Assembly: GCF_963921235.1 (NCBI RefSeq)
Contig: NW_026948141.1
Coordinates: 1-64,000, forward strand
Length of the DNA: 64,000 bases
Direction of reading: 5' to 3'
DNA from: Mobula hypostoma
Taxonomy: Eukaryota
Shown here piece after piece: positions 9,001 through 64,000 of this stretch. Positions within the stretch are counted from its first letter, which is position 1. Every line of letters starts with the position of its first letter. The notes beneath the pieces were generated by a model. It made no database searches. It had not been told where the DNA came from and was given only the letters and a program-made list of their open reading frames with translations. The position numbers and the translations under genes were made by a program.

Positions 9001-12000
9001 CGTGTGTCCGTGCGAGTCTGTGCGTGTGTGTCTGCATGTCCGTGTGTGTGTGCGAGTCTGTGCGTGTGTGTCTGCGTGTCCGTGTGTCCGTGTGAGTCTG
9101 TGCGTGTGTCTGCGTGTCCATGTGTGTGTGCGAGTCTGTGTGTGTGTGTCTGCGTGTCCGTATGTGTGTGCGAGTCTGTGCATGTGTGTCTGCGTGTCCG
9201 TGTGTCCGTGCGAGTCTGTGCGTGTGTGTCTGCATGTCCGTGTGTGTGTGCGAGTCTGTGCGTGTGTGTCTGCGTGTCCGTCTGTCCGTGTGAGTCTGTG
9301 CGTGTGTGTCTGTGTGTCCATGTGTGTGTGCGAGTCTGTGCGTGTGTGTCTGCATGTCCGTGTGTGTGTGCGAGTCTGTGCGTGTGTGTCTGCGTGTCCG
9401 TGTGTCCGTGCGAGTCTGTGCGTGTGTGTCTGCGTCTCCGTGTGTGTGTGCGAGTCTGTGCGTGTGTGTCTGCGTGTCCGTGTGTGTGTGCGAGTCTGTG
9501 CGTGTGTGTCTGCGCGTCCGTGTGTGTGTGAGAGTCTGTGCGTGTGTGTCTGCACGTCCGTGTGTCTGTGCGAGTCTGTGCGTGTGTGTCTGCGTGTCCG
9601 TGTGTGTGTGCGAGTCTGTGCTTGTGTGTCTGCGTGTCTGTGTGTGTGTGCGAGTCTGTGTGCGTGTGTGTCTGCGTGTCCGTGTGTCTGTGCGAGTCTG
9701 TGCGTGTGTGTCTGTGTGTCCGTGTCTCCGTGCGAGTCTGTGCTTGTGTGTCTGCGTGTCCGTGTGTGTGTGCGTTTCTGTGTGCGTGTGTGTCTGCATG
9801 TCCATGTGTGTGTGGGAGTCTGTGCGTGTGTGTCTGCGTGTCCGTGTGTCCGTGCGAGTCTGTGCGCGTGTGTCTGCGTGTCCGTGTGTGTGTGCGAGTC
9901 TGTGCGTGTGTGTCTGCATGTCCGTGTGTGTGTGCGAGTCTGTGCGTGTGTGCGTGTCCGTGTGTGTGTGCGAGTCTGTGCGTGTGTGTCTGCATGTCCG
10001 TGTGTGTGTGCGAGTCTGTGTGTGTGTGTGTCTGCATCTCCGTGTGTGTGTGCGAGTCTGTGCGTGTGTGTGTCTGCGTGTCCGTGTGTGTGTGCGAGTC
10101 TGTGCGTGTGTGTCTGCATGTCCATGTGTGTGTGCGAGTCTGTGCGTGTGTGTGTTTGCGTGTCCGTGTGTGTGTGCGAGTCTGTGTGTGTGTGTGTCTG
10201 CGTGTCCGTGTGTCCGTGCGAGTCTGTGCGTGTGTGTCTGCATGTCCGTGTGTCCGCGCGAGTCTGTGCGCGTGTGTCTGCATGTCCGTTTCTGTGTGCG
10301 AGTCTGTGCGTGTGTGTCTGCATGTCCGTGTGTGTGTGCGAGTCTGTGCGTGTGTGTCTGCATGTCCGTGTGTCCGTGCGAGTTTGTGCGTGTGTGTGTC
10401 TGCCTGTCTGTGCGTGTGTGTCTGCATGTCCGTGTGTGTGTGCGAGTCTGTGCGTGTGTGTGTCTGCGTGTCTGTGCGTGTGTGCGAGTCTGTGCGTGTG
10501 TGTGTCTGCGTGTCCGTGTGTGTGTGCGAGTCTGTGCGTGTGTGTCTGCGTGTCCGTGTGTGTGTGCGAGTCTGTGCGTGTGTATCTGCGTGTCCATGTG
10601 TGTGTGCGAGTCTGTGCGTGTGTGTCTGCCTGTCCGTGTGTGTGTGCGAGTCTGTGCATGTGTATCTGCATGTCCGTGTGTGTGTGCGAGTCTGTGCGTG
10701 TGTGTCTGCATGTCCGTGTGTCCGTGCGAGTCTGTGCGTGTGTGTCTGCGTGTCTGTGCGTGTGTGTCTGTGTGTCCGTGTGTGTTTGAGGGTCTGTGCG
10801 TGTGTGTCTGCGTGTCCGTGTGTGTGTGCGAGTCTGTGCGTGTGTGTCTGCGTGTCCGTGTGTCCGTGCGAGTCTGTGCGTGTGTGTCTGCGTGTCCGTG
10901 TGTGTGTGCGAGTCTGTGCGTGTGTGTCTGCGTGTCCGTGTGTCCATGCGAGTCTGTGCGTGTGTGTCTGCGTGTCCGTGTGTGTGTGAGGGTCTGTGCG
11001 TGTGTGTCTGCGTGTCCGTGTGTGTGTGCGAGTCTGTGCGTGTGTGTCTGCGTGTCCGTGTGTCCGTGCGAGTTTGTGCGTGTGTGTCTGCGTGTCCGTG
11101 TGTGTGTGCGAGTCTGTGCGTGTGTGTCTGCGTGTCCGTGTGTCCGTGCGAGTTTGTGCGTGTGTGTCTGCGTGTCTGTGTGTCCGTCTGAGTCTGTGCG
11201 TGTGTGTCTGCATGTCCGTGTGTGTGTGCGAGTCTGTGTGCGGGTGTGTCTGCGTGTCCGTGTGTCCGTGCGAGTCTGTGCGTGTGTGTCTGCATGTCCG
11301 TGTGTCCGTGCGAGTCTGTGCGTGTGTGTCTGCGTGTCCGTGTGTGTGTGCGAGTCTGTGTGTGTGTGTGTCTGCCTGTCTGTGCATGTGTGTCTGCGTG
11401 TCCGTGTGTGTGTGCAAGTTTGTGGGTGTGTGTCTGCGTGTCCGTGTGTGTGTGCTAGTCTGTGTGCGTGTGTGTCTGCGTGTCCGTGTGTCCGTGCGAG
11501 TCTGTGCGTGTGTGTCTGCATGTCCGTGTGTCCGTGCGAATCTGTGCGTGTGTGTCTGCATGTCCGTGTGTCCGTGCGAGTTTGTGCGTGTGTGTGTCTG
11601 CCTGTCTGTGCGTGTGTGTCTGCATGTCCGTGTGTGTGTGCGAGTCTGTGCGTGTGTGTCTGCGTGTCTGTGCGTGTGTGCGAGTCTGTGCGTGTGTGTG
11701 TCTGCGTGTCCGTGTGTGTGTGCGAGTCTGTGCGTGTGTGTCTGCGTGTCCGTGTGTGTGTGCGAGTCTGTGCGTGTGTATCTGCGTGTCCGTGTGTGTG
11801 TGCGAGTCTGTGCATGTGTGTCTGCATGTCCGTGTGTGTGTGCGAGTCTGTGCGTGTGTATCTGCATGTCCGTGTGTGTGTGCGAGTCTGTGCGTGTGTG
11901 TCTGCATGTCCGTGTGTCCGTGCGAGTCTGTGCGTGTGTGTCTGCGTGTCTGTGCGTGTGTGTCTGTGTGTCCGTGTGTGTGTGAGGGTCTGTGCGTGTG

Positions 12001-15000
12001 CGTCTGCGTGTCCGTGTGTGTGTGCGAGTCTGTGCGTGTGTGTCTGCGTGTCCGTGTGTGTGTGCGAGTCTGTGTGTGTGTGTCTGCGTGTCCGTGTGTC
12101 CGTCCGAGTCTGTGCGTGTGTGTCTGCATGTCCGTGTGTGTGTGCGAGTCTGTGTGCGGGTGTGTCTGCGTGTCCGTGTGTCCGTGCGAGTCTGTGCGTG
12201 TGTGTCTGCATGTCAGTGTGTCCGTGCGAGTCTGTGCGTGTGTGTCTGCGTGTCCGTGTGTGTGTGCGAGTCTGTGTGTGTGTGTGTCTGCCTGTCTGTG
12301 CATGTGTGTCTGCGTGTCCGTGTGTGTGTGCGAGTCTGTGCGTGTGTGTCTGCGTGTCCGTGTGTCCGTGCGAGTCTGTGCGTGTGTGTCTGCGTGTCCG
12401 TGTGTGTGTACGAGTCTGTGCGTGTGTGTCTGCGTGTCCGTGTGTGTGTGCGAGTCTGTGCGTGTGTGTCTGCGTGTCCGTGTGTCCGTGCGAGTCTGTG
12501 CGTGTGTGTCTGCCTGTCCGTGTGTGTGTGCTAGTCTGTGTGCGTGTGTGTCTGCGTGTCCGTGTGTGTGTGCTAGTCTGTGTGCGTGTGTGTCTGCGTG
12601 TCCGTGTGTCCGTGCGAGTCTGTGCGTGTGTGTCTGCATGTCCGTGTGTCCGTGCGAATCTGTGCGTGTGTGTCTGCATGTCCGTGTGTCCGTGCGAGTT
12701 TGTGTGTGTGTGTGTCTGCCTGTCTGTGCGTGTGTGTCTGGATGTCCGTGTGTGTGTGTCTGCGTGTCTGTGCGTGTGTGCGAGTCTGTGCGTGTGTGTG
12801 TCTGCGTGTCCGTGTGTGTGTGCGAATCTGTGCGTGTGTGTCTGCGTGTCCGTGTGTGTGTGCGAGTCTGTGCGTGTGTGTCTGCGTGTCCGTGTGTGTG
12901 TGCGAGTCTGTGCGTGTGTTTCTGCGTGTCCGTGTGTGTGTGCGAGTCTGTGCGTGTGTGTCTGCATGTCCGTGTGTGTGTGCGAGTCTGTTCGTGTGTA
13001 TCTGCATGTCCGTGTGTGTGTGCGAGTCTGTGCGTGTGTGTCTGCATGTCCGTGTGTCCGTGCGAGTCTGTGCGTGTGTGTCTGCGTGTCTGTGCGTGTG
13101 TGCGAGTCTGTGTGTGTGTGTGTCTGCGTGTCCGTGTGTGTGTGCGAGTCTGTGCGTGTGTGTGTCTGCGTGTCTGTGTGTGTGTGCTAGTCTGTGTGCG
13201 TGTGTGTCTGCGTGTCCGTGTGTCCGTGCGAGTCTGTGCGTGTGTGTCTGCATGTCCATGTGTCCGTGCGAATCTGTGCGTGTGTGTCTGCATGTCCGTG
13301 TGTCCGTGCGAGTTTGTGCGTGTGTGTGTCTGCCTGTCTGTGCGTGTGTGTCTGCATGTCCGTGTGTGTGTGCGAGTCTGTGCGTGTGTGTGTCTGCGTG
13401 TCTGTGCGTGTGTGCGAGTCTGTGCGTGTGTGTGTCTGCGTGTCCGTGTGTGTGTGCGAGTCTGTGCGTGTGCGTCTGCGTGTCCGTGTGTGTGTGCGAG
13501 TCTGTGCGTGTGTTTCTGCGTGTCCGTGTGTGTGTGCGAGTCTGTGCGTGTGTGTCTGCATGTCCGTGTGTGTGTGCGAGTCTGTGCGTGTGTATCTGCA
13601 TGTCCGTGTGTGTGTGCGAGTCTGTGCGTGTGTGTCTGCATGTCCGTGTGTCCGTGCGAGTCTGTGCGTGTGTGTCTGCGTGTCTGTGCGTGTGTGCGAG
13701 TCTGTGTGTGTGTGTGTCTGCGTGTCCGTGTGTGTGTGCGAGTCTGTGCGTGTGTGTCTGCGTGTCCGTGTGTGTGTGAGGGTCTGTGCGTGTGTGTCTG
13801 CGTGTCCGTGTGTGTGTGCGAGTCTGTGCGTGTGTGTCTGCGTGTCCGTGTGTCCGTGCGAGTTTGTGCGTGTGTGTCTGCGTGTCCGTGTCTGTGTGCG
13901 AGTCTGTGCGTGTGTGTCTGCGTGTCCGTGTGTCCGTGCGAGTTTGTGCGTGTGTGTCTGCGTGTCTGTGTGTCCGTCTGAGTCTGTGCGTGTGTGTCTG
14001 CCTGTCCGTGTGTGTGTGCGAGTCTGTGTGCGGGTGTGTCTGCGTGTCCGTGTGTCCGTGCGAGTCTGTGCGTGTGTGTCTGCATGTCCGTGTGTCCGTG
14101 CGAGTCTGTGCGTGTGTGTCTGCGTGTCCGTGTGTGTGTGCGAGTCTGTGTGTGTGTGTGTCTGCCTGTCTGTGCATGTGTGTCTGCGTGTCCGTGTGTG
14201 TGTGCAAGTTTGTGGGTGTGTGTCTGCGTGTCCGTGTGTGTGTGCTAGTCTGTGTGCATGTGTGTCTGCGTGTCCGTGTGTCCGTGCGAGTCTGTGCGTG
14301 TGTGTCTGCATGTCCGTGTGTCCGTGCGAATCTGTGCGTGTGTGTCTGCATGTCCGTGTGTCCGTGCGAGTTTGTGCGTGTGTGTGTCTGCCTGTCTGTG
14401 CGTGTGTGTCTGCATGTCCGTGTGTGTGTGCGAGTCTGTGCGTGTGTGTCTGCGTGTCTGTGCGTGTGTGCGAGTCTGTGCGTGTGTGTGTCTGCGTGTC
14501 CGTGTGTGTGTGCGAGTCTGTGCGTGTGTGTCTGCGTGTCCGTGTGTGTGTGCGAGTCTGTGCGTGTGTATCTGCGTGTCCGTGTGTGTGTGCGAGTCTG
14601 TGCATGTGTGTCTGCATGTCCGTGTGTGTGTGCGAGTCTGTGCGTGTGTATCTGCATGTCCGTGTGTGTGTGCGAGTCTGTGCGTGTGTGTCTGCATGTC
14701 CGTGTGTCCGTGCGAGTCTGTGCGTGTGTGTCTGCGTGTCTGTGCGTGTGTGTCTGTGTGTCCGTGTGTGTGTGAGGGTCTGTGCGTGTGCGTCTGCGTG
14801 TCCGTGTGTGTGTGCGAGTCTGTGCGTGTGTGTCTGCGTGTCCGTGTGTGTGTGCGAGTCTGTGTGTGTGTGTCTGCGTGTCCGTGTGTCCGTCCGAGTC
14901 TGTGCGTGTGTGTCTGCGTGTCCGTGTGTGTGTGCGAGTCTGTGTGCGGGTGTGTCTGCGTGTCCGTGTGTCCGTGCGAGTCTGTGCGTGTGTGTCTGCA

Positions 15001-34868: not shown

Positions 34869-35808
34869 GGCAGACCGGGGGATTGTACACTGTCACAGTC
34901 CGTAATCTCATAGCCTGGTACACCCCTCACTGTTAGTGACAGACCGGGAATTGTACACTGTCACAGTCTGTAATCTCAGTCTGGTACAGTACACCCCTCA
35001 CTGTTAGTGACAGACTGGGGGATTGTACACTGTCACAGTCTGTAATCTCAGTCTGGTACAGTACACCCCTCACTGTTAGTGACAGACTGGGGGATTGTAC
35101 ACTGTCACAGTCTGTAATCGCATAGCCTGGTACAGTACACCGCTCACTGTTAGTGACAGACTGAGGGATTGTACACTGTCACAGTCTGTAATCTCAGTCT
35201 GGTACAGTACACCCCTCACTGTTAGTGACAGACTGGGGGATTGTACACTGTCACAGTCTGTAATCTCAGTCTGGTACAGTACACCCCTCACTGTTAGTGA
35301 CAGACTGGGGGATTGTACACTGTCACAGTCTGTAATCGCATAGCCTGGTACACCCCTCACTGTTAGTGACAGACTGGGGGATTGTACACTGTCACAGTCT
35401 GTAATCTCATAGCCTGGTACACCCCTCACTGTTAGTGACAGACTGGGGGATTGTACACTGTCACAGTCTGTAATCGCATAGCCTGGTACAGTACACCGCT
35501 CACTGTTAGTGACAGACTGAGATTACGGACTGTGACAGTGTACAATTCCCAGTCTGTCAGTAACAGTGAGGGGTGTACCAGGCTATGAGATTACAGACTG
35601 TGACAGTGTACAATTCCCAGTCTGTCACTAACAGTGAGGGGTGTACTGTACCAGGCTATGAGATTACGGACTGTGACAGTGTACAATTCCCAGTCTGTCA
35701 CTAACAGTGAGGGGTGTACTGTACCAGGCTATGAGATTACGGACTGTGACAGTGTACAATTCCCAGTCTGTCAGTAACAGTGAGGGGTGTACCAGACTGA
35801 GATTACAG
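34869..35808. repeat. 69-74-bp minisatellite: about 9 forward units followed by about 4 inverted units
   Basis: Unit ACTGTTAGTGACAGACTGGGGGATTGTACACTGTCACAGTCTGTAATCTCAGTCTGGTACAGTACACCCCTC, with spacings 72, 74, 72, 72, 69, 69, 74. Reverse-complement units start at about 35513. Confidence 0.97.
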
Positions 35809-36221: not shown

Positions 36222-37248
36222 TACTCTGTGGCCACTTTATCAGGTTCACCTGTACACCTCATTACAAATATCTAGTCAGCAGCAGGATAAAGGCATGTAG
36301 ACATGTTCAAGCTGTTTAGTTGTTGTTCAGACCATCAAGGTTATAGGTAGGCACATGGATTACGATCTAAGTGACCTTGACCTTGGAATGATTGTTGATG
36401 CCAGACAGGGTGGGTTGAGTATCTCAGAAACTCCTGATCCCCTGGAATTTTCACGCACAGCAGTTTCAGAGTTTACAGAGGATGATGTGGAACAGCGAAA
36501 AAAAACATCCAGTGAGCAGCAGTTCTGTGGGTGAAAACACCTTGTTAATGAGAGAGGTCAGAGCAGAATGGCCAGACTGGTTCATCTCTGAACAGCCAAC
36601 ACATCGAACCTTGAAGTGGCTGGGCTACAGCAGCAAAAGAACACACCTGTACCTAATAAACATAGAACATAGAAATTTACAGCACATTACAGGCCTTTCA
36701 GCCAACAATGTTTTGCTGACCATGGAACCTACTCTAGAAACCACCTAGAATTTCCCTCGCGCATAGCCCTCTATTTTTCTAAACTCCATGTACCTATCTA
36801 AGAGACTCTTAAAAGACCCTATTGTATCTGCTTCCACCACCGCCACTGGCAGTGCATTCCACACACCCACCACTCTCTGTGTATAAAACCTACCCCTGAC
36901 ATCCCCTTGGTAACTACTTTTCCAAGCACCTTAAAACTATGCCCCCTCTTGTTAGCCTTTTCAGCGCTGGGAAAAAGCCTCTAGCTATCCACACAATCAA
37001 TACCCCTCATCATCTTATACACCTCTATCAGGTCACCTCTCATCCTTTGTCACTCCAAGGAGTAAAGGCCAAGTTCACTCAACCTATTCTCATAAGAGAT
37101 GCCCTGCAATCCAGGCAACATCCTTGTAAATCTCTTCTGCACTGTAGTATCCACATCCTTCCTGTAGTGAGGTGACCAGAACTGAACACAGTACTCCCAA
37201 GTGGGGTCTGACCAAGGTCTTAGATAGCTAAAGTGGCCACTTGAGTGT
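36222..37248 (+). mobile_element. Internally deleted Tc1-like DNA transposon with a CR1 inserted in its right TIR
   Basis: TIRs GTGGCCACTTTATCAGGT and ACCTAATAAA[insert]GTGGCCAC. Transposase N-terminal remnant LSDLDLGMIVDARQGGLSISETPDPLEFSRT at about 36367-36460. Confidence 0.8.
36661..37228 (-). mobile_element. CR1 LINE 3' end
   Basis: CATAGAACATAGAA tail at 36661; GACCAGAACTGAACACAGTACTCC encodes EYCVQFWS on the minus strand. Confidence 0.9.
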
Positions 37249-40470: not shown

Positions 40471-41132
40471 CTTCATTTCCTCTACAATCTCACTTATTGC
40501 TAGTGTTTCCTGAACACTGAACGATCTGGAACATGGCTCTTTAAATGAGGAAGGGAGGAAAGGTGTGTCCCTGACAAAAAAAATGAAGTGTCTTGCTCAA
40601 ATCATTGATTGTTCATTCCCCTCCATAGATGTCAGACATTGCCTGACCTGCTGAGTTCCTCCATCATTTTGTGTGTGTGTATGTGTGTGTGTTGCTTGAC
40701 TGTATTGGATCTCATGTCTGGCGTGTTCTAGTGTCTTAAACTAATGCACTGTAGCAATGTTCAAAACCTGAATCTTACTGCCTATGAAGGCAAGAGCCTG
40801 GCAATCTTGTTTTTCGCAGTTTTAGGTGATAAATCAAAAGGGTAATCATCTTATCTGCCGTTTATTTCAGAAACAGAATGACACTAACAGAGACAGCCAG
40901 CCTTTTAGAATCAGAATTGGGTTTAATTTCATTGGCATAGGTCATGAATTTTGTCGTTTTGTAGCCGCCGTACATTCCAATACTCATGTCCTCCACTGGT
41001 CAGGGTTGACCATGGATGTTACGTCCCAACTGTCTACGAGATATGCAGACCAACATGTAAGCCAGGGCAGTACGATATGGAGAGCAAGTTGTTGCTCATG
41101 TAGCAGACTCCCCCTCTCCATGCAGCTGATGA

Positions 41133-41494
41133 AACATAGAAAAATAGAAACCCTACAGCACAATACAGGCCCTTCGGCCCGCAAAGCTGTACCGAACATG
41201 TCCCTACCTTAGAACTACCTAGGCTTTACCCATAACCCTCTATTTTTCTGAGCTCTATGTAGCCATCCAGGAGTCTCTTAAAAGACCCTATCGTATCCAC
41301 CTCCACCACCGCCACTGCAACCGGCAGCCCATTCCACGCACTCACCACTCTCTGCATAAAAAACTTACCCCTGACATCTCCTCTGTACCCACTTCCAAGT
41401 TCCTTAAAACTGTGCCCTCTCGTGCTAGGCATTTCAGCCCTGGGGGAAAGCCTCTGACTATCCACACGATCAATGCCTCTCATCATCTTATCCA
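41133..41494 (-). mobile_element. CR1 LINE 3' end
   Basis: ORF 41226-41495 MRGIDRVDSQRL...FFMQRVVSAWNGLP, with an ACATAGAAAAATAGAAA tail. Confidence 0.9.
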
Positions 41495-41932
41495 CTTTTT
41501 AAATTCTTTATTCTAAAGTTTTTTTTTCTTTTTTGAGTCCAAAGGAACAGCAGAATCCAATACATTTAGGCACCAGCGGCCTCGCGGAAATCATCAGTCT
41601 GCATTGAACTCAGTGTAGGACTGCTTTAGGGATGTCAGCTCCAGATTTTCCCTTGGGGTTGATTCCCGAAGCTTTCTCCACGGGTGGGTGTAGCTGCAAG
41701 GCAGTGGAGGTTTGAGATCAGAGTTTGCATTCTCCTAGAAGAGCTGCTGACCTCGGCTGATGAGCCCCATCCACCCAGCACGATTGGTTTTAATGTGGCA
41801 GTAACTTGGCTTTGCCCCTTCTCCTGTCTGTAGAAATGGTTCTGCAGGGCTTAGTAGCTAAGGCGCACATGAAGGCCAGAATCTGGACAGAGGCCAGAGG
41901 CTGTTTGAGACACATGCCATTGAGAGATTTAA

Positions 41933-44900
41933 GTCTGCTCCACCATTCAATCATGGCTGATCCTTTTTTTCCCTCCTCCTCAACCTCAGTTCCTGGCCTT
42001 CTTCCCCTAAACTTTTGATGCCATGTCCAATCAAGAATCTATTAATCTCTGTCTTAAATACACCCAATGACCTGGATTCCACAGCTGCATGTGGCAACAA
42101 ATTCCACAAATTCACCACCCTTTGGCTAAAGAAATTTCTTTGCATCTCTATTTTGAATGGATGCACCTCTATTCTGAGGCTGTGTCCTCTTGTCCTAGAC
42201 TTTCCCACCATGGGAAACATCCCTTCCACATCTACTCTGTCCGGGCCTTTCAACATTCGAAAGCTTTCAATGAGACCCCCCTTCATTCTGAATTCCAGCG
42301 AGTACAGACCCAGAGCCATCAAACGTTCCTCGTATAATAACCCTTTCATTCCTAGAATCATCCGTGTGAACCTCCTCTGGACTCTCTCCAATGCCAGCAC
42401 ATCTTTTCTAAGATGAGGAGCCCAACTGTTCACAATACTCAAGGTGAAGCCTCACCCGTACCTTTTAAAGCCTCAGCATCACATCCCTGCTCTTGTATTC
42501 TAGACCTCTTGAAATGAATGCTAACATTGCATTTGCCTTCCTTACCACCGACTCAATCTGCAAGTAACCTTCAGGGTGTTCTGCACAAGGACTCTGATGT
42601 CAGTCTACATCTCAGATTCCTGGATTTTCTCCCTGTTTAGAAAATAGTCTGCACATTTATTTTTACTACCAAAGTGCATGACCATGCATTTGCCAACATT
42701 GTATTTCATTTGCCACTTTCTTGCCCATTCTCCTAATCTGTCTAAGTCCTTTTGCATCCTTTCTGTTTCCTCAACACTACCTGTCCCTCCACCAATCTTC
42801 ATATCATCTGCAAACTTGGCAACAAAGCCATCTATTCCATCATCTAAATCATTGATATACAGCATAAAAAGAAGTGGTCCCAACACCAACCCCTGATGAA
42901 CACCACGAGTCACTGGCAGCCAACCAGAAAAGGATCCTTTTATTTCCACTCGCTGCTTCCTACCAATCAGCCAATGCTCTAACCATGCCAGTAAATTTCC
43001 TATAATACTATGGGCTCTTAACTTGGTAAGCAGCCTCATGTGTGGCACCTTGTCAAAGGCCTTCTGGAAGTCCAAATATACAACATCCACTACATCCCCT
43101 TTATCTACCCTACATGTAATATCCTCAAAGAACTCCAACAGGTTCATCAGGCAGGATTTTCCCTGAAGGAAGCCATGCTGGTGTTGTACTATCTTGTCCT
43201 GTGTCACCAAGTACTCAATCACCTCATCCTTAACAATTGACTGTAACATCTTCCCAACCACTGAGGTCGAGCTAACTGGTCTATAATTTCCTTTCTGCTG
43301 CCTTCCTCCTTTCTTAAGGAGTGGAGTAACATTTACAATTTTCCAGTCCTCTGGAACCATGCCAGAGTCCAATGATTTTTGAAAGATCATTTCTAATGCC
43401 GCCACAATCTCTAACACTAACTCTTTCAGAACCCTAGTGTGCAGTTCCTCTGGTCCAGGTGACTTATGTCTGAGAGGGCATAGTTTTAAGGTGCTTGGAG
43501 GTAGGTACCAAGGAGATGTCAGGGGTAACTAGGGGTAAGCTTTTTTACATAGAGTGGTGAGTGCGTAGAATAGACTGCTAGCCACGGTGATGGAGGCGGA
43601 TACAACAGGGTCTTTTAAGGGGCTCCCGGATAGGTACATGGAGCTTAGAAAAATAGAGGGCTATGGGTAACCCGAGGTAATTTCTAAAGTAAGTTCATTT
43701 TCGGCACAGCATTGTGGGCCAAAGGGCCTGTATTGTGCTGTAGGTTTTCCATGTTTCTGTGTACTTTAGGTCTACATCATCAGGCATGCTGCAAGTGTAC
43801 TCCACACTGAACAACAGCAAAATATTCTTTTAGTTCATCAGCCATCTCCTTATCCCCCATTATTATTTCTCCTGCCTCATTTTCTAGTGGTCCTATATCC
43901 ACTCTCATTTCTCTTTTTTTTTAACATATTTGATAAAACTTTTACTATCCGCTTTGATGTTACTTGCTAGTTTGCCTTCATATTTCTTTTCCCTTTTAAT
44001 GATTTTTTTAGTTGCTCTCTGTAGGTTTTTAAAAACTTCCCAATCCTCTATCTTCCCACTAATTTTTGCTTTGTTGTATGCCCTTTCTTTTGCTTTTACA
44101 ATAGCTTTTGACTTCCTTTGTCAGCCATGGTTGTACTATTTTACCATTTGAGTATTCCTTCTTTTTTGGAATACACATGTCCTGCACCTTCCTCATTTTT
44201 CCTGGAAACTCAGGCCATTGCTGCTCTGCTGACATTTCTGCCAGCAACTCCTTCCAATTTACTTTGGCCAACTCCTCTCTCTCATACCACTGTAATTTCC
44301 CTTACTCCCCTGAAATACTGCTACGTCAGACTTTACTTTCTTCCTATCAAATTTCAAGTAAACCTCAATCATATTGTGAACACTGGTTTTTAAGGGTTCT
44401 TTTACCTTAATCTCCCTAATCGCCCCTGGTTTATTACATAACATCCAATCCAGTATAGCTGATCCCCTAGTAGGCTCAACAACAAACTGCTCTAAAAAGC
44501 CATCTCTTAGGCATTCAACAAACTCACTCTCTTGAGATCCATTACCAACCTGATTTTCCCAATCAACCAGCATTCCCATAACATTGCCCTTCTGACTCAC
44601 CTTTTCTATTTCCTGTTGTAATCTGTGGTCCACCTCTCAGCCACTGTTGGGAGGCCTGTAGATAACTGCCATCAATGTCCTTTTACCCTTGCAGTTTCTT
44701 AACTCAACTCACAAGGATAACATCTTCCGATCCTATGTCACATCTTTCTATTGATTTGATGCCATTCTTTATCAGTAGTCACACTGCCTCCCCTGCCTAC
44801 CTTCCTATCCCTCTGATATAACGTGTAACCTTGGACATTCAGCTCCCAACTACAACCACCCTTCAGCCACAATTCAGTGATGGTCACAACATCATACCTG

Positions 44901-51010: not shown

Positions 51011-51609
51011 GTAGGTTAAACACTTCAAAATAGAGTCATGGAGTTGCAGTATTATACAGCATAGAAGCAGGCCATTCAGCCCAGCTTGTCCACGTTGATC
51101 TGTAGACACCTTTCCAGATAAATCCCATTCACCAGCACTTGGTCCATCGGCTTACTTGCCCCCACCAATCTTTAGCTAGATGGTGGTGAGTCTGTGGAAT
51201 TCATCGCCACAGACGACTGTGGAGGCCAAGTCATTGGGTATATTTACAATGGCAGTTAATAGGTTCTTGATTAGCAAGGATGTCATAGGTTACAGGGAGA
51301 AGGGGAGAGAATGGGGTTGAAAGGGAAAATAAATCAACCACGAGAGATCAGACTTGATGGGCTGAATGGTCTTTTTTGCTCAGCTGTCTTATGGTCCTAT
51401 GGCAATCTCAACACTTCTTTAATGCTGTCAGTGATCCAGCTTCAACCACTCTCCTACAGTTAATTCTGCACATTTACCATTTCCTGAGTGAAAAGATTCT
51501 CCTCATGTCCTCTCTAAAACCTTCAACCCTTACCCTAAACCCATCCTTCTAGTTTTATCTATCTCTGATTTCCTGTGTTTATCACATGACCATAGTTGTT
51601 AAGCTTCTG

Positions 51610-54600
51610 TTGGTCAAGATTGACCATGGATGTTGCGTCCTAGCTGTCTATGTAGTCAGTACGCAAGCCAGGGCAGTACAATATGTAGTCAGTACGCAAG
51701 CCAGGGCAGAACAATATGTAGTCAGTACGCGAGCCAGGCCAGTACAATATGTAGTCAGTACGCAAGCCAGACCAGTACAGTATGTAGTCAGTACGCAAGC
51801 CAGGGCAGTACAATATGTAGTCAGTACGCAAGCCAGGCCAGTACAGTATGTAGTCAGTACGCAAGCCAGGCCAGTACAGTATGTAGTCAGTACGCAAGCC
51901 AGAGCAGTACAATATGTAGTCAGTACGCAAGCCAGGCCAGTACAATATGTAGTCAGTACGCAAGCCAGGCCAGTACAATATGTAGTCAGTACGCAAGCCA
52001 GGCCAGTACAATATGTAGCCAGTACGCAAGCCAGGCCAGTACAGTATGTAGTCAGTACGCAAGCCAGGGCAGTACAATATGTAGTCAGTACGCAAGCCAG
52101 GGCAGTACAATATGTAGTCAGTACGCAAGCCAGGCCAGTACAATATGTAGTCAGTACGCAAGCCAGGCCTGTACAATATATAGTCAGTACGCAAGCCAGG
52201 GCAGTACAATATGTAGTCAGTACGCAAGCCAGGGCAGTACAATATGTAGTCAGTACGCAAGCCAGGGCAGTACAATATGTAGTCAGTACGCAAGCCAGGC
52301 CAGTACAATATGTAGTCAGTACGCAAGCCAGGCCTGTACAATATGTAGTCAGTACGCAAGCCAGTCCAGTACAGTATGTAGTCAGTACGCAAGCCAGGGC
52401 AGTACAATATGTAGTCAGTACGCAAGCCAGGGCAGTACAATATGTAGTCAGTACGCAAGCCAGGCCAGTACAATATGTAGTCAGTACGCAAGCCAGGGCA
52501 GTACAATATGTAGTCAGTACACAAGCCAGGGCAGTACAATATGTAGTCAGTACACAAGCCAGGCCAGTACAATATGTAGTCAGTACACAAGCCGGGGCAG
52601 TACAATATGTAGTCAGTACACAAGCCAGGGCAGTACAATATGTAGTCAGTACACAAGCCAGGGCAGTACAATATGTAGTCAGTACACAAGCCAGGCCAGT
52701 ACAATATGTAGTCAGTACACAAGCCAGGGCAGTACAATATGTAGTCAGTACACAAGCCAGGCCAGTACAATATGTAGTCAGTACACAAGCCAGGGCAGTA
52801 CAATATGTAGTCAGTACACAAGCCAGGGCAGTACAATATGTAGTCAGTACACAAGCCGGGCCAGTACAATATGAGTCAGTACACAAGCCAGGGCAGTACA
52901 ATATGTAGTCAGTACGCAAGCCAGGGCAGTACAATATGTAGTCAGTACGCAAGCCAGGGCAGTACAATATGTAGTCAGTACACAAACCAGGGCAGTACAA
53001 TATGTAGTCAGTACACAAGCCAGGGCAGTACAATATGTAGTCAGTACACAAGCCAGGGCAGTACAATATGTAGTCAGTACACAAGCCGGGGCAGTACAAT
53101 ATGTAGTCAGTACACAAGCCAGGGCAGTACAATATGTAGTCAGTACGCAAGCCAGGGCAGTACAATATGTAGTCAGTACGCAAGCCGGGGCAGTACAATA
53201 TGTAGTCAGTACAACAAGCCAGGGCAGTACAATATGTAGTCAGTACGCGAGCCAGGCCAGTACAATATGTAGTCAGTACGCAAGCCAGACCAGTACAGTA
53301 TGTAGTCAGTACGCAAGCCAGGGCAGTACAATATGTAGTCAGTACGCAAGCCAGGCCAGTACAGTATGTAGTCAGTACGCAAGCCAGGCCAGTACAGTAT
53401 GTAGTCAGTACGCAAGCCAGGGCAGTACAATATGTAGTCAGTACGCAAGCCAGGGCAGTACAATATGTAGTCAGTACGCAAGCCAGGCCAGTACAATATG
53501 TAGTCAGTACGCAAGCCAGGCCAGTACAATATGTAGTCAGTACGCAAGCCAGGGCAGTACAGTATGTAGTCAGTACGCAAGCCAGGGCAGTACAGTATGT
53601 AGTCAGTACGCAAGCCAGGCCAGTACAATATGTAGTCAGTACGCAAGCCAGGCCTGTACAATATGTAGTCAGTACGCAAGCCAGGCCTGTACAATATGTA
53701 GTCAGTACGCAAGCCAGGCCAGTACAGTATGTAGTCAGTACGCAAGCCAGGGCAGTACAGTATGTAGTCAGTACACAAGCCGGGGCAGTACAATATGTAG
53801 TCAGTACACAAGCCAGGCCAGCACAATATGTAGTCAGTACACAAGCCGGGGCAGTACAATATGTAGTCAGTACACAAGCCGGGGCAGTACAATATGTAGT
53901 CAGTACACAAGCCAGGCCAGTACAATATGTAGTCAGTAGACAAGCCAGGGCAGTACAATATGTAGTCAGTACACAAGCCAGGCCAGTACAATATGTAGTC
54001 AGTACACAAGCCAGGGCAGTACAATATGTAGTCAGTACACAAGCCAGGCCAGTAAAATATGTAGTCAGTACAGAAGCCAGGGCAGTACAATATGTAGTCA
54101 GTACACAAGCCAGGGCAGTACAATATGTAGTCAGTACGCAAGCCAGGCCAGTACAGTATGTAGTCAGTACGCAAGCCGGGGCAGTACAATATGTAGTCAG
54201 TACACAAGCCAGGGCAGTACAATATGTAGTCAGTACACAAGCCAGGGCAGTACAATATGTAGTCAGTACACAAGCCAGGGCAGTACAATATGTAGTCAGT
54301 ACGCAAGCCAGGGCAGTACAATATGTAGTCAGTACGCAAGCCAGGCCAGTACAATATGTAGTCAGTACGCAAGCCAGGGCAGTACAATATGTAGTCAGTA
54401 CGCAAGCCAGGGCAGTACAATATGTAGTCAGTACACAAGCCAGGGCAGTACAATATGTAGTCAGTACACAAGCCAGGGCAGTACAATATGTAGTCAGTAC
54501 ACAAGCCAGGCCAGTACAATATGTAGTCAGTACACAAGCCAGGGCAGTACAATATGTAGTCAGTACACAAGCCAGGGCAGTACAATATGTAGTCAGTACA

Positions 54601-54950
54601 CAAGCCAGGCCAGTACAATATGTAGTCAGTACACAAGCCGGGGCAGTACCATATGAAGAGCAAGCTGTTCACCTGCAGCAGGCTCTCCCTCTCCACACAG
54701 CTGATGAATCCAAAGGAACGGCAGAGAATGATACAGTTTGGCACCAGTGGCATCGCAGGAGTTGCTAGACAACATTGAACTCAACATAGGACTGCCTTAG
54801 GGATTCCTGCTCCAGATTTGTCCTTGATGCTTGCTCCTGAAACCTTCCCCATGAGTGGGTATAGCTGCAGCAGTGGAGATTTGAGATCCAAGGTTTCCTT
54901 CTCCTAGATGACCTGCCAATCACGGCTGATGAGCTCCGCCTGCCTGAACT
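51610..54950 (-). mobile_element. Interspersed element copy 2 (same family as 40990-46870 and 63645-64000), hosting the 33-bp array
   Basis: Left flank TGACCATGGATGTTGCGTCCTAGCTGTCTA and right flank AGAGCAAGCTGTT...CAGCTGATGAATCCAAAGGAAC align with 41007-41132 and 41535-41770. Confidence 0.85.
51649..54655. repeat. 33-bp minisatellite, 91 units
   Basis: Unit TATGTAGTCAGTAC(G/A)CAAGCCAGG(G/C)CAGTACAA. Length 3007 bp = 91 x 33 + TATG, with one -1 indel (about 52873) and one +1 indel (about 53213). Confidence 0.99.
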
Positions 54951-55268
54951 ACCGTATCCTCTCTCCTCTCTCCTCGTTCTCTTCTGTAGCTCAGTCATGT
55001 TCTCTCTTAGCCTTCTCTGTTCTGGAAAGAACAGTTACTGGAGGCATGAATACGGTAACATAAGGTTCAAGTTTATCAGATATACTTTGAAACCTACAGT
55101 GAAATGCATCATTTGCATTAACGAGCAAAACATCCAAGAAAGCTCTGGGGGCAGCCCACAAGTTTCACCTCACATTCTGGCACCAGCATAGCACGTCCAC
55201 AATGCTCAACAGAACAACAAGCAACAAATCAACAGCAAAACGAGCCCTGTTACTCCCTGGTCCCCACC

Positions 55269-62831: not shown

Positions 62832-63644
62832 TGGAAAAGGAGAGAATGGGAGCAGTGAGAAATTACTGGAAATCTGAGAAATTGATAGTCGTGTTAGTTA
62901 AGCTGAAATGTTAAGTGTTTCTTCATAGCTGGCACTTAGATAAGATACTAAAGGAACGACTCATTGGGTAAATACAGAAGAACACATGCTGCTGTTTAAT
63001 TAGTCAGGGTGTCAAAGGTTATGGGGAGAAGGCAGCAGAATGGGGTTTAGAAGTATAATAAAGCAGCCATGATGGAATGGTGTAGTAGACTCAATAGGAT
63101 GAGTGGCTTAATTCTGCTCCTAGGTTTTATGATCTTATGTGCAACTGCAGAGAGACATGCACGGACACACACATGAAATATGGAAACTGTTCTGACTGTC
63201 TTGAAAAACACTGACAGTAATGGAAGCTTTATAATACACAGTGAGTTTTTGCAGAGAACGCACGGAGCTGTACAACAATAATTGATGTCATTCAGTGCTG
63301 TCTAGATCATCTTAAGCATTGTTTCATGTTTGCTTGTTAGCCTGTGATATGTGCTATGTTTCAGACACTTAGCTTCACATGGTCTAGACTAGAGCCTCTC
63401 AGAGGCCTAGCTGCCTGAACAGTAGAATGTTGCCATCTGGAAACTCCATTTGATGAATTCCTAATTCCTCAAAAATTCAGAAAACAAGTGGGTTATTTAA
63501 GTTTGGAAGTTTGTGCCTTGTTCCAACATCATTCAGATTGTAAAGTGTTGACAAGCCATAAGCTCACAGTGCGTGGGCCTGAGAAGTGAAAGATTAAACA
63601 AGTAAGTGTGTGATGCAGGCCGTAGGTCCTTAAGGTTGTTATAC

Positions 63645-64000
63645 CTGGTAGTGTGGATGAGCTCCCAGTACCTATTAAATGCTCTGAATGGCACGCATCT
63701 CAATACCAAGTCCAGCTCACGACCTTCATGCATGGCTTAACTACTAAACCCAGTGGAACTGATAGCAGAGGGGCAAAGGTGGGTTACTCACACCTTAAAA
63801 CCAGTCACTTTGTGCAGATGAGGCTCGTCAGCTGTGTTTGGTAACTCATCTAGGAGAAGGAAAACTCTGATCTCAAAACTCCGCTGCCTTGCGGCTTTAC
63901 CCAATCATTGGAAAGGTTTCAAGAGTAAACCCCGAGGAAAATCCGGAGGTGGTGTCCCTAAGGCAGTCCTACATTGTGCTCAATACTGACTGGCAACTCC
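63645..64000 (+). mobile_element. Interspersed element copy 3 (5' part; runs off the window)
   Basis: Reverse complement of copies 1 and 2. Contains CTAGGAGAAGGAAAACTCTGA (63850-63870), a motif I recall from RTE-clade 5' regions. Confidence 0.75.

What the first reader, a model, noticed from the sequence alone, without database searches (positions are those of the whole stretch)
51610..54950. Birth of a minisatellite: a 33-bp internal segment of an interspersed element amplified 91 times, with the single-copy form in the same window
Seen: both flanks of the array are contiguous parts of one element. The unamplified copy at about 41030-41090 reads CTGTCTACG...TAAGCCAGGGCAGTACGATATGGAGAGCAAG, with a longer, diverged middle. 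The array starts and ends in TATG (CTATGTAG ... ATATGAAG), the short direct repeat expected to seed the first slippage duplication. With the SINE-tail array, this makes two retroposon-seeded satellites at one locus.
Basis: seen in the sequence. Interest (0 to 1): 0.7.

Follow-up and report, generated by a model that had tools for sequence, protein, structure and literature searches.

The report
Minisatellite grown inside an old retroelement
A 33-base piece of one old jumping-gene copy has been duplicated head-to-tail 91 times, with the two halves of that copy still on either side; this is a clear but ordinary example of a well-described way in which minisatellites arise.

Summary
The array is real: 91 units of 33 bp at 51649-54655. 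It sits inside one 5'-truncated, roughly 9%-diverged copy of a very abundant interspersed element with an RTE-type LINE leader. Both flanks are contiguous in the paralogous copy at 41 kb, and the right junction also in 243-305 family contigs per run. The ends share TATG (6 of 7 as TATGnAG). Corrections: the unit is not a verbatim piece of the common family form, because family contigs mostly stop matching at unit position 12 and none of 137 reaches positions 1-5. The 41-kb copy is a paralogue with a 41-bp form, not the array's precursor. The array is not newborn: it has 25 variants and a 46-unit block duplication. Junction depth is about 10 times lower in a close relative and 50 times lower in a more distant one, a weak hint of recent growth. 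Retroelement-derived minisatellites seeded by short direct repeats are well described (PMC3389668, PMC6947457, PMC10702118), and this scan noted similar arrays elsewhere in the genome (e1-7814136, e1-7814003). Verdict: new member of a known kind, interest 0.2.

The parts
51649..54655 (+). Minisatellite: 91 units of 33 bp plus the terminal TATG
51602..51648 (-). Left flank: last 45 bp or so (3' end) of the host element copy; boundary approximate
   Evidence: 33 of 38 columns match 40997-41034; similarity to the 41-kb copy ends near 51602-51611
54656..54950 (-). Right flank: rest of the host element, RTE-type leader, 5'-truncated near 54950
   Evidence: 75% to 41534-41768 and 79% to 63823-64000; family depth falls from 23,384 to 1,211 to 0 across 54913-54984 in X3; 74% over 107 bp to L007
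51649..51655 (+). Left copy of the terminal microhomology (TATG; 6 of 7 with the right copy)
54652..54658 (+). Right copy of the terminal microhomology; the family majority has G at 54656
   Evidence: table 3
51715..51879 (+). Units 3-7, marker block of the first half
   Evidence: identical to units 49-53; permutation p 0.0014 for two twice-seen variants adjacent in the same order
53233..53397 (+). Units 49-53, same marker block 46 units (1518 bp) later
40990..41890 (-). Paralogous, unamplified element copy (41-bp form at the site), split by an insertion; boundaries approximate
41040..41063 (+). Decayed 12-bp tandem duplication in the 41-kb copy, overlapping the part that corresponds to the unit's left half
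   Evidence: 7 of 12 identical, all 5 differences transitions; naive p about 1e-4, register chosen after looking
41132..41534 (.). Later insertion of another repeat (3' end of a CR1-like LINE or SINE; label recalled) into the 41-kb copy, with TGA on both sides
   Evidence: 78-79% to 36658-37022 and 43472-43762; junctions
63520..64000 (+). Third element copy with the 5' leader; cut by the window end before the site of the unit; start approximate
   Evidence: 89% over 63 bp to L003

Best explanation
A locus-specific minisatellite arose in place in one old, 5'-truncated copy of an abundant retroelement with an RTE-type leader. Step 1 (shown): the copy is old, at least 9% from the family majority. 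Step 2 (inferred): it belonged to a minority form with a 12-bp duplication at this site, as the 41-kb copy does, and had lost 8 bp, leaving a 33-bp stretch between two imperfect 7-bp repeats. Step 3 (inferred): slippage or misaligned repair between those repeats made the first duplication. Step 4 (shown by unit order): local slippage or conversion spread variants among neighbours, and one unequal exchange of about 46 units roughly doubled the array. It is most likely neutral, length-variable DNA with no function.
For: Contiguous flanks in the 41-kb copy. Right junction contiguous in 305, 243, 286 and 291 family contigs of four runs (table 7). Host copy differs from the X3 majority at 25 listed places in 265 bp (table 3), and the star estimate is 9%. 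Terminal homology is 4 of 4 or 6 of 7; chance of 4 or more is 1.6%. Family matches mostly stop at unit position 12, and some reach positions 6-11, as a 41-kb-like form would. The array 12-mer against the 41-kb 12-mer differs by 7 transitions and 1 transversion. Neighbouring units are more alike than shuffled (lag 1, z -5.3), position 15 has 12 runs against 45.6 expected (p 5e-5), and units 3-7 equal units 49-53.
Against: The family letters left of the unit were never displayed, so the majority form and the 8-bp loss are inferred from where alignments stop and from one paralogue. Left-flank adjacency rests on the 41-kb copy alone. The seed is shorter than the 5-10 bp of the published model, and most TE-derived repeats in human have no flanking repeat at all (PMC3389668 section 3.4), so a chance match cannot be excluded. 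The lag-46 signal (p 0.0008) is borderline after 69 lags. No orthologous locus was seen: contigs of the unique flank were absent in X3 and X8.
Confidence: 0.75

Rival explanations
1. The unit is a verbatim single segment of a family or subfamily master, and only the duplication was local.
For: Unit positions 12-33 and the right flank are contiguous in hundreds of contigs. 525 joint rows and 52,374 pieces were not shown, so a small subfamily could be hidden.
Against: None of 137 contigs in the 11 relevant joint rows (three runs) reaches unit positions 1-5, whereas 53-98% of simulated copies would if the unit were verbatim (my simplified scoring). All 5 of the 32 listed long pieces that enter the unit stop at 54630-54634 with 40-445 unlike letters beyond. 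The 41-kb copy is 8 bp longer.
Confidence: 0.12
2. The array is one member of a dispersed satellite family, spread with or into element copies, as for multi-locus SINE-derived satellites of snakes.
For: Multi-locus arrays of this kind are published (PMC10702118). Organism B shows a small excess of junction-type depth over organism C.
Against: Junction-type depth in X3 is about 154 single-copy-contig equivalents, the order expected from one or two alleles of about 90 units; the tool warns that depth is no copy number. No second array lies in the window and no look-alike window was found in the scan's index.
Confidence: 0.08
3. The first duplication arose without the TATG seed, for example in the 41-bp form through another register, and a later deletion between the short repeats created the present left junction.
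For: A rotated 33-bp unit (starting at position 6) is contiguous in the 41-kb-like form, and the seed is only 4 bp.
Against: It needs an extra substitution at unit position 5, where the family has G on the right-hand side (place 54656); the preferred model inherits that base from the left repeat.
Confidence: 0.1
4. The array is an assembly artefact, or a coding repeat.
For: The period is a multiple of 3 and four of six frames lack stops. The two halves share a marker block.
Against: The two halves differ widely in unit order. High junction depth appears in contigs of organism A. A 32-bp and a 34-bp unit shift the frame, and the surrounding long ORFs look like retroelement fragments by eye.
Confidence: 0.03

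Closest known systems
TE-derived minisatellites initiated between short direct repeats (Haber-Louis model; Alu-derived cases of Jurka and Gentles; human survey PMC3389668, passages and section 3.4 read; review PMC6947457, passages read; the original Haber-Louis and Jurka-Gentles papers were not seen)
   Same: An internal segment of a retroelement is repeated head-to-tail, element sequence continues on both sides, a short direct repeat bounds the array, and growth continues by slippage, conversion or unequal exchange. PMC3389668 counts 7,276 such repeats in human (23% of minisatellites), 300 with 5-20 bp flanking repeats.
   Different: The seed is 4 bp perfect (6 of 7 imperfect). The host is an RTE-type leader element of a cartilaginous fish rather than Alu or B1. 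With 91 units the array is long, since most human cases have two. The unit comes from a variant copy, not the consensus.
SINE-derived satellites (sSats) of squamates, PMC10702118 (abstract, passages and Discussion read)
   Same: Tandem array of part of a short retroelement with element sequence at the ends; the minor type with both termini is described; up to about 1000 units; orthologous loci vary in unit number.
   Different: sSats derive from tRNA-headed SINEs and occur at many loci per genome. Here the source is an RTE-type leader, and only one locus is known.
RTE 5'-UTR-derived non-autonomous elements and SINE bodies, PMC5786205 (parts 2 and 3 of 5 and four supplement passages read)
   Same: The host element shares the conserved mid-5'-UTR block printed there for RTE-1_NV, RTE-4_NV and Ingi-3_AC (compared by eye) and matches leaders upstream of endonuclease and reverse-transcriptase frames in L005 and L002.
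   Different: No LINE-derived 3' tail, target-site duplication or partner LINE was identified. The block is also found in Ingi and R4 elements, so the clade is not fixed.

Membership tests
TE-derived minisatellite (PMC3389668 criteria) | Head-to-tail array, unit 10-100 bp, GC at least 40%, about 95% identity among units | tested here: met
   33 bp, 95% matches; GC 0.48 over 52001-54000
TE-derived minisatellite (PMC3389668 criteria) | Unit similar to, or overlapping, an interspersed element | tested here: met
   Three copies in the window; family contigs in three organisms join the unit's right part to the right flank
   Best reads stop at unit position 12 in 14 of 31 cells, earlier in 7, at positions 6-11 in 10, never at 1-5
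Haber-Louis initiation | Flanking direct repeat of 5-10 bp | tested here: inconclusive
   4 bp perfect, 6 of 7 imperfect; chance of 4 or more is 1.6%
VNTR | Length polymorphism among individuals | not testable with these tools
   Only contigs were on offer, and the only deep runs of organism A came from one sample
Squamate-type sSat | Derived from a tRNA-headed SINE | tested here: not met
   The leader matches LINE 5' regions; ARAGORN finds no tRNA in 28900-64000, a weak test for decayed heads
Squamate-type sSat | Many loci, subtelomeric bias | not testable with these tools
   No genome held; depth suggests about one array, not conclusive
RTE-clade derived non-autonomous element | RTE-type 5'-UTR block | tested here: met
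   74-89% matches to leaders in L002-L007; downstream RVT_1 E 5e-35 in L002 and Exo_endo_phos E 2e-8 in L005; motif in PMC5786205 supplement
RTE-clade derived non-autonomous element | 3' tail from the same LINE and a target-site duplication | tested here: inconclusive
   No duplication of 5 bp or more around the host copy; two copies end at the same place but no shared tail follows
RTE-clade derived non-autonomous element | Partner LINE placed in the RTE clade by its reverse transcriptase | not tested
   No tree was built; L002 and L005 come from another animal and serve only to name the leader

The most novel reading that the evidence does not exclude
This site of the RTE-type leader is a recurrent duplication hotspot, and the locus records a three-step birth: a 12-bp micro-duplication in a subfamily, an 8-bp loss that created a new repeat-bounded 33-mer, then runaway growth in one lineage only. 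Organisms B and C would then hold short and single-unit alleles, giving a dated series of stages. With the other retroelement-born arrays noted in this genome, rays would be a second vertebrate group with unusually frequent retroelement-to-satellite conversion.
Probability: 0.25. Interest if true: 0.45.

Novelty: new member of a known kind. Interest (0 to 1): 0.2.

Why it matters
On its own it adds one tidy example to a known class and perhaps a polymorphic marker. It would matter more if the orthologues in the two related organisms carry one and a few units, because the first duplication of a minisatellite is rarely seen and its mechanism is unexplained for about 94% of human TE-derived cases (PMC3389668 section 3.4). 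It also warns that an array's unit can come from a private variant of one copy, so matching units to a family consensus can miss or misplace the origin.

Tried and rejected
Exact-pattern scans for the element near the unit found nothing in viral contigs, metagenome contigs or prokaryote genomes. A leader motif found 7 metagenome loci that share only the 5' leader. Rfam found nothing at gathering scores in 29000-64000 and only three chance-level hits at 63400-64000, so a 5' ribozyme is neither shown nor excluded. A hairpin trigger was rejected: three units fold no better than shuffles (z +0.6, +0.7), nor does the 41-kb site (z -0.1, +0.1); the left junction region gave z -1.9, weak, one of five folds. 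My first runs test used the wrong column and was redone. The unique flank had no cover in X3 and X8; a filter leaves records out, so this says nothing about orthologues. Organism C's share of words was 0.06 and is used only through what was laid. Literature searches for a description of this array or element in sharks or rays (listings only) showed none, in a library that lacks most subscription journals and Repbase. Earlier-finding look-ups by sequence, near place and words gave nothing.

Full report
Observation. Tandem Repeats Finder gives 51649-54655, period 33, 91.1 copies, 95% matches. Parsing gives 89 units of 33 bp, one of 32 and one of 34, in 25 variants. Units differ on average at 1.84 of 33 positions from each other and 1.29 from their consensus. 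A 20-mer of the unit occurs 90 times in the window, all in the array, and never in 100 shuffles. No whole genome is held. The surroundings are repeat-dense, with ORFs that look by eye like LINE fragments. Earlier notes on this genome call the animal a ray (e1-7942681, unchecked).

The host element. Three copies lie in the window: the one holding the array (about 51602-54950, minus strand), one at about 40990-41890 (minus, split by a 400-bp insertion) and one from about 63520 to the window end (plus). Over 170 shared columns their star distances are 9%, 16% and 11%. The left flank matches the 41-kb copy at 33 of 38 columns and the right flank at 44 of 53, far above 200 shuffles each, and the two matches lie on either side of one unit-equivalent. 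Laying public contigs on 54553-55260 (three units plus the right flank) brought 10,699-13,753 contigs per run in three organisms, a count that includes a second repeat at 55057-55260. X9 and X11 are one sample, and X3 may be the window's own source, so it is not independent. The loose-end consensus joins the unit's last bases directly to the right flank in 305, 243, 286 and 291 contigs. The left flank was not in the stretch, so its adjacency rests on the 41-kb copy alone. The host copy differs from the X3 majority at all 25 listed places in 54656-54920, at least 9.4%. Depth ends near 54950, while the other two copies run on, so this copy is 5'-truncated.

What kind of element. A leader motif found seven metagenome loci from another animal. 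They match the element's 5' part at 68-89%. Downstream, L002 encodes a reverse transcriptase (RVT_1, E 5e-35) and L005 an endonuclease (Exo_endo_phos, E 2e-8); the short open end of L007 had no hit. The same block is printed for RTE-1_NV, RTE-4_NV and Ingi-3_AC in the supplement of PMC5786205 (four passages, compared by eye), and the text describes it as a conserved mid-5'-UTR domain of RTEs that also occurs in Ingi and R4. So the host works like an RTE-leader-derived short element. Its clade, tail and target-site duplication were not established, and Rfam shows no ribozyme.

Is the unit in the consensus? Only in part. Five of the 32 long pieces listed enter the last unit; all stop at 54630-54634 (unit positions 12-16) with 40-445 unlike letters beyond (two of the five are the same contig). 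In the 11 joint rows that involve the unit (15 rows shown, 525 not shown; X11 left out as a duplicate sample), the best read stops exactly at position 12 in 14 of 31 cells, earlier in 7 and at positions 6-11 in 10. None of 137 contigs reaches positions 1-5, and 69 lie in cells that stop by position 12. If the unit were verbatim in the family, 53-98% of simulated copies would reach positions 1-5 (my own simple scoring, and contig ends could shorten some matches). The 41-kb copy is 8 bp longer at the site and holds a decayed 12-bp tandem duplication (7 of 12 identical, five transitions). Its second part aligns to unit positions 5-16 with seven transitions and one transversion. The simplest reading, an inference, is a common short form, a minority form with the 12-bp duplication, and a founder that lost 8 bp from the latter. 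The deepest reach observed, position 6, is what the minority form predicts. The family's letters left of position 12 were not displayed.

Seed and growth. The array starts with TATG-T-AG and is followed by TATG-A-AG; the family has G at that fifth place on the right. Four or more bases of terminal homology arise by chance 1.6% of the time. The 41-kb copy has TACG on the left, so the perfect match may postdate or predate the event. Later growth is recorded in unit order. Neighbours are more alike than shuffled (lag 1, z -5.3). The G/A variant at position 15 forms 12 runs against 45.6 expected (p 5e-5). Units 3-7 equal units 49-53, including two variants seen only there (p 0.0014). Lag 46 is the strongest long lag (p 0.0008, borderline over 69 lags). 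This points to a 1.5-kb block duplication followed by further turnover, since the halves now differ widely. The unit has no unusual fold.

Age across organisms. At 54590, where a tandem junction has T and single-unit copies have G, non-G depth is 1062 in organism A, 45 in B and 22 and 20 in C, or 83, 8.2, 1.6 and 1.5 per 10,000 of the family peak. This fits one large array in A, perhaps a short one in B and none in C. It is a weak hint: depth is no copy number, the neighbouring bin shows no clear excess in B over C, and no orthologous contig was identified.

Comparison with what is known. Minisatellites born from retroelement segments between short direct repeats, then grown by slippage, conversion or unequal exchange, are the standard model (PMC6947457, passages). 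PMC3389668 counts 7,276 TE-derived repeats in human, 300 with flanking repeats of 5-20 bp. PMC10702118 describes SINE-derived arrays of up to about 1000 units in squamates, including a minor type with both element ends; its supplements were not read and may hold closer parallels. Five searches showed no description of this array or element in sharks or rays (listings only). This scan has noted similar arrays on other DNA of this genome (e1-7814136, e1-7814003; not checked here).

Verdict. The feature is real and the in-place origin is well supported (0.75 for the full account). It is a new member of a known kind; interest 0.2.

Noticed in passing
ARAGORN finds no tRNA there.
   Followed up: partly
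window 34871-35792: A 72-73 bp array in two inverted blocks (9.1 and 3.8 units) that switch strand at 35518; origin unexplained.
   Followed up: no
window 41132-41534: A 400-bp repeat inserted into the 41-kb element copy with TGA on both sides.
   Followed up: partly
window 41040-41063: Decayed 12-bp tandem duplication in the 41-kb copy at the same site as the array.
   Followed up: yes
window 55057-55260: A second high-copy repeat just right of the host element, present in all three organisms.
   Followed up: no
L002 1612-3716; L005 350-1406: In another animal the same leader block precedes two different-looking LINE bodies; L002 appears to jump from the leader straight into the reverse transcriptase.
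   Followed up: partly
window 51648-54668 minus strand: A 1006-codon stop-free frame spans the array because the 32-bp and 34-bp units compensate; no sign that it is coding.
   Followed up: partly
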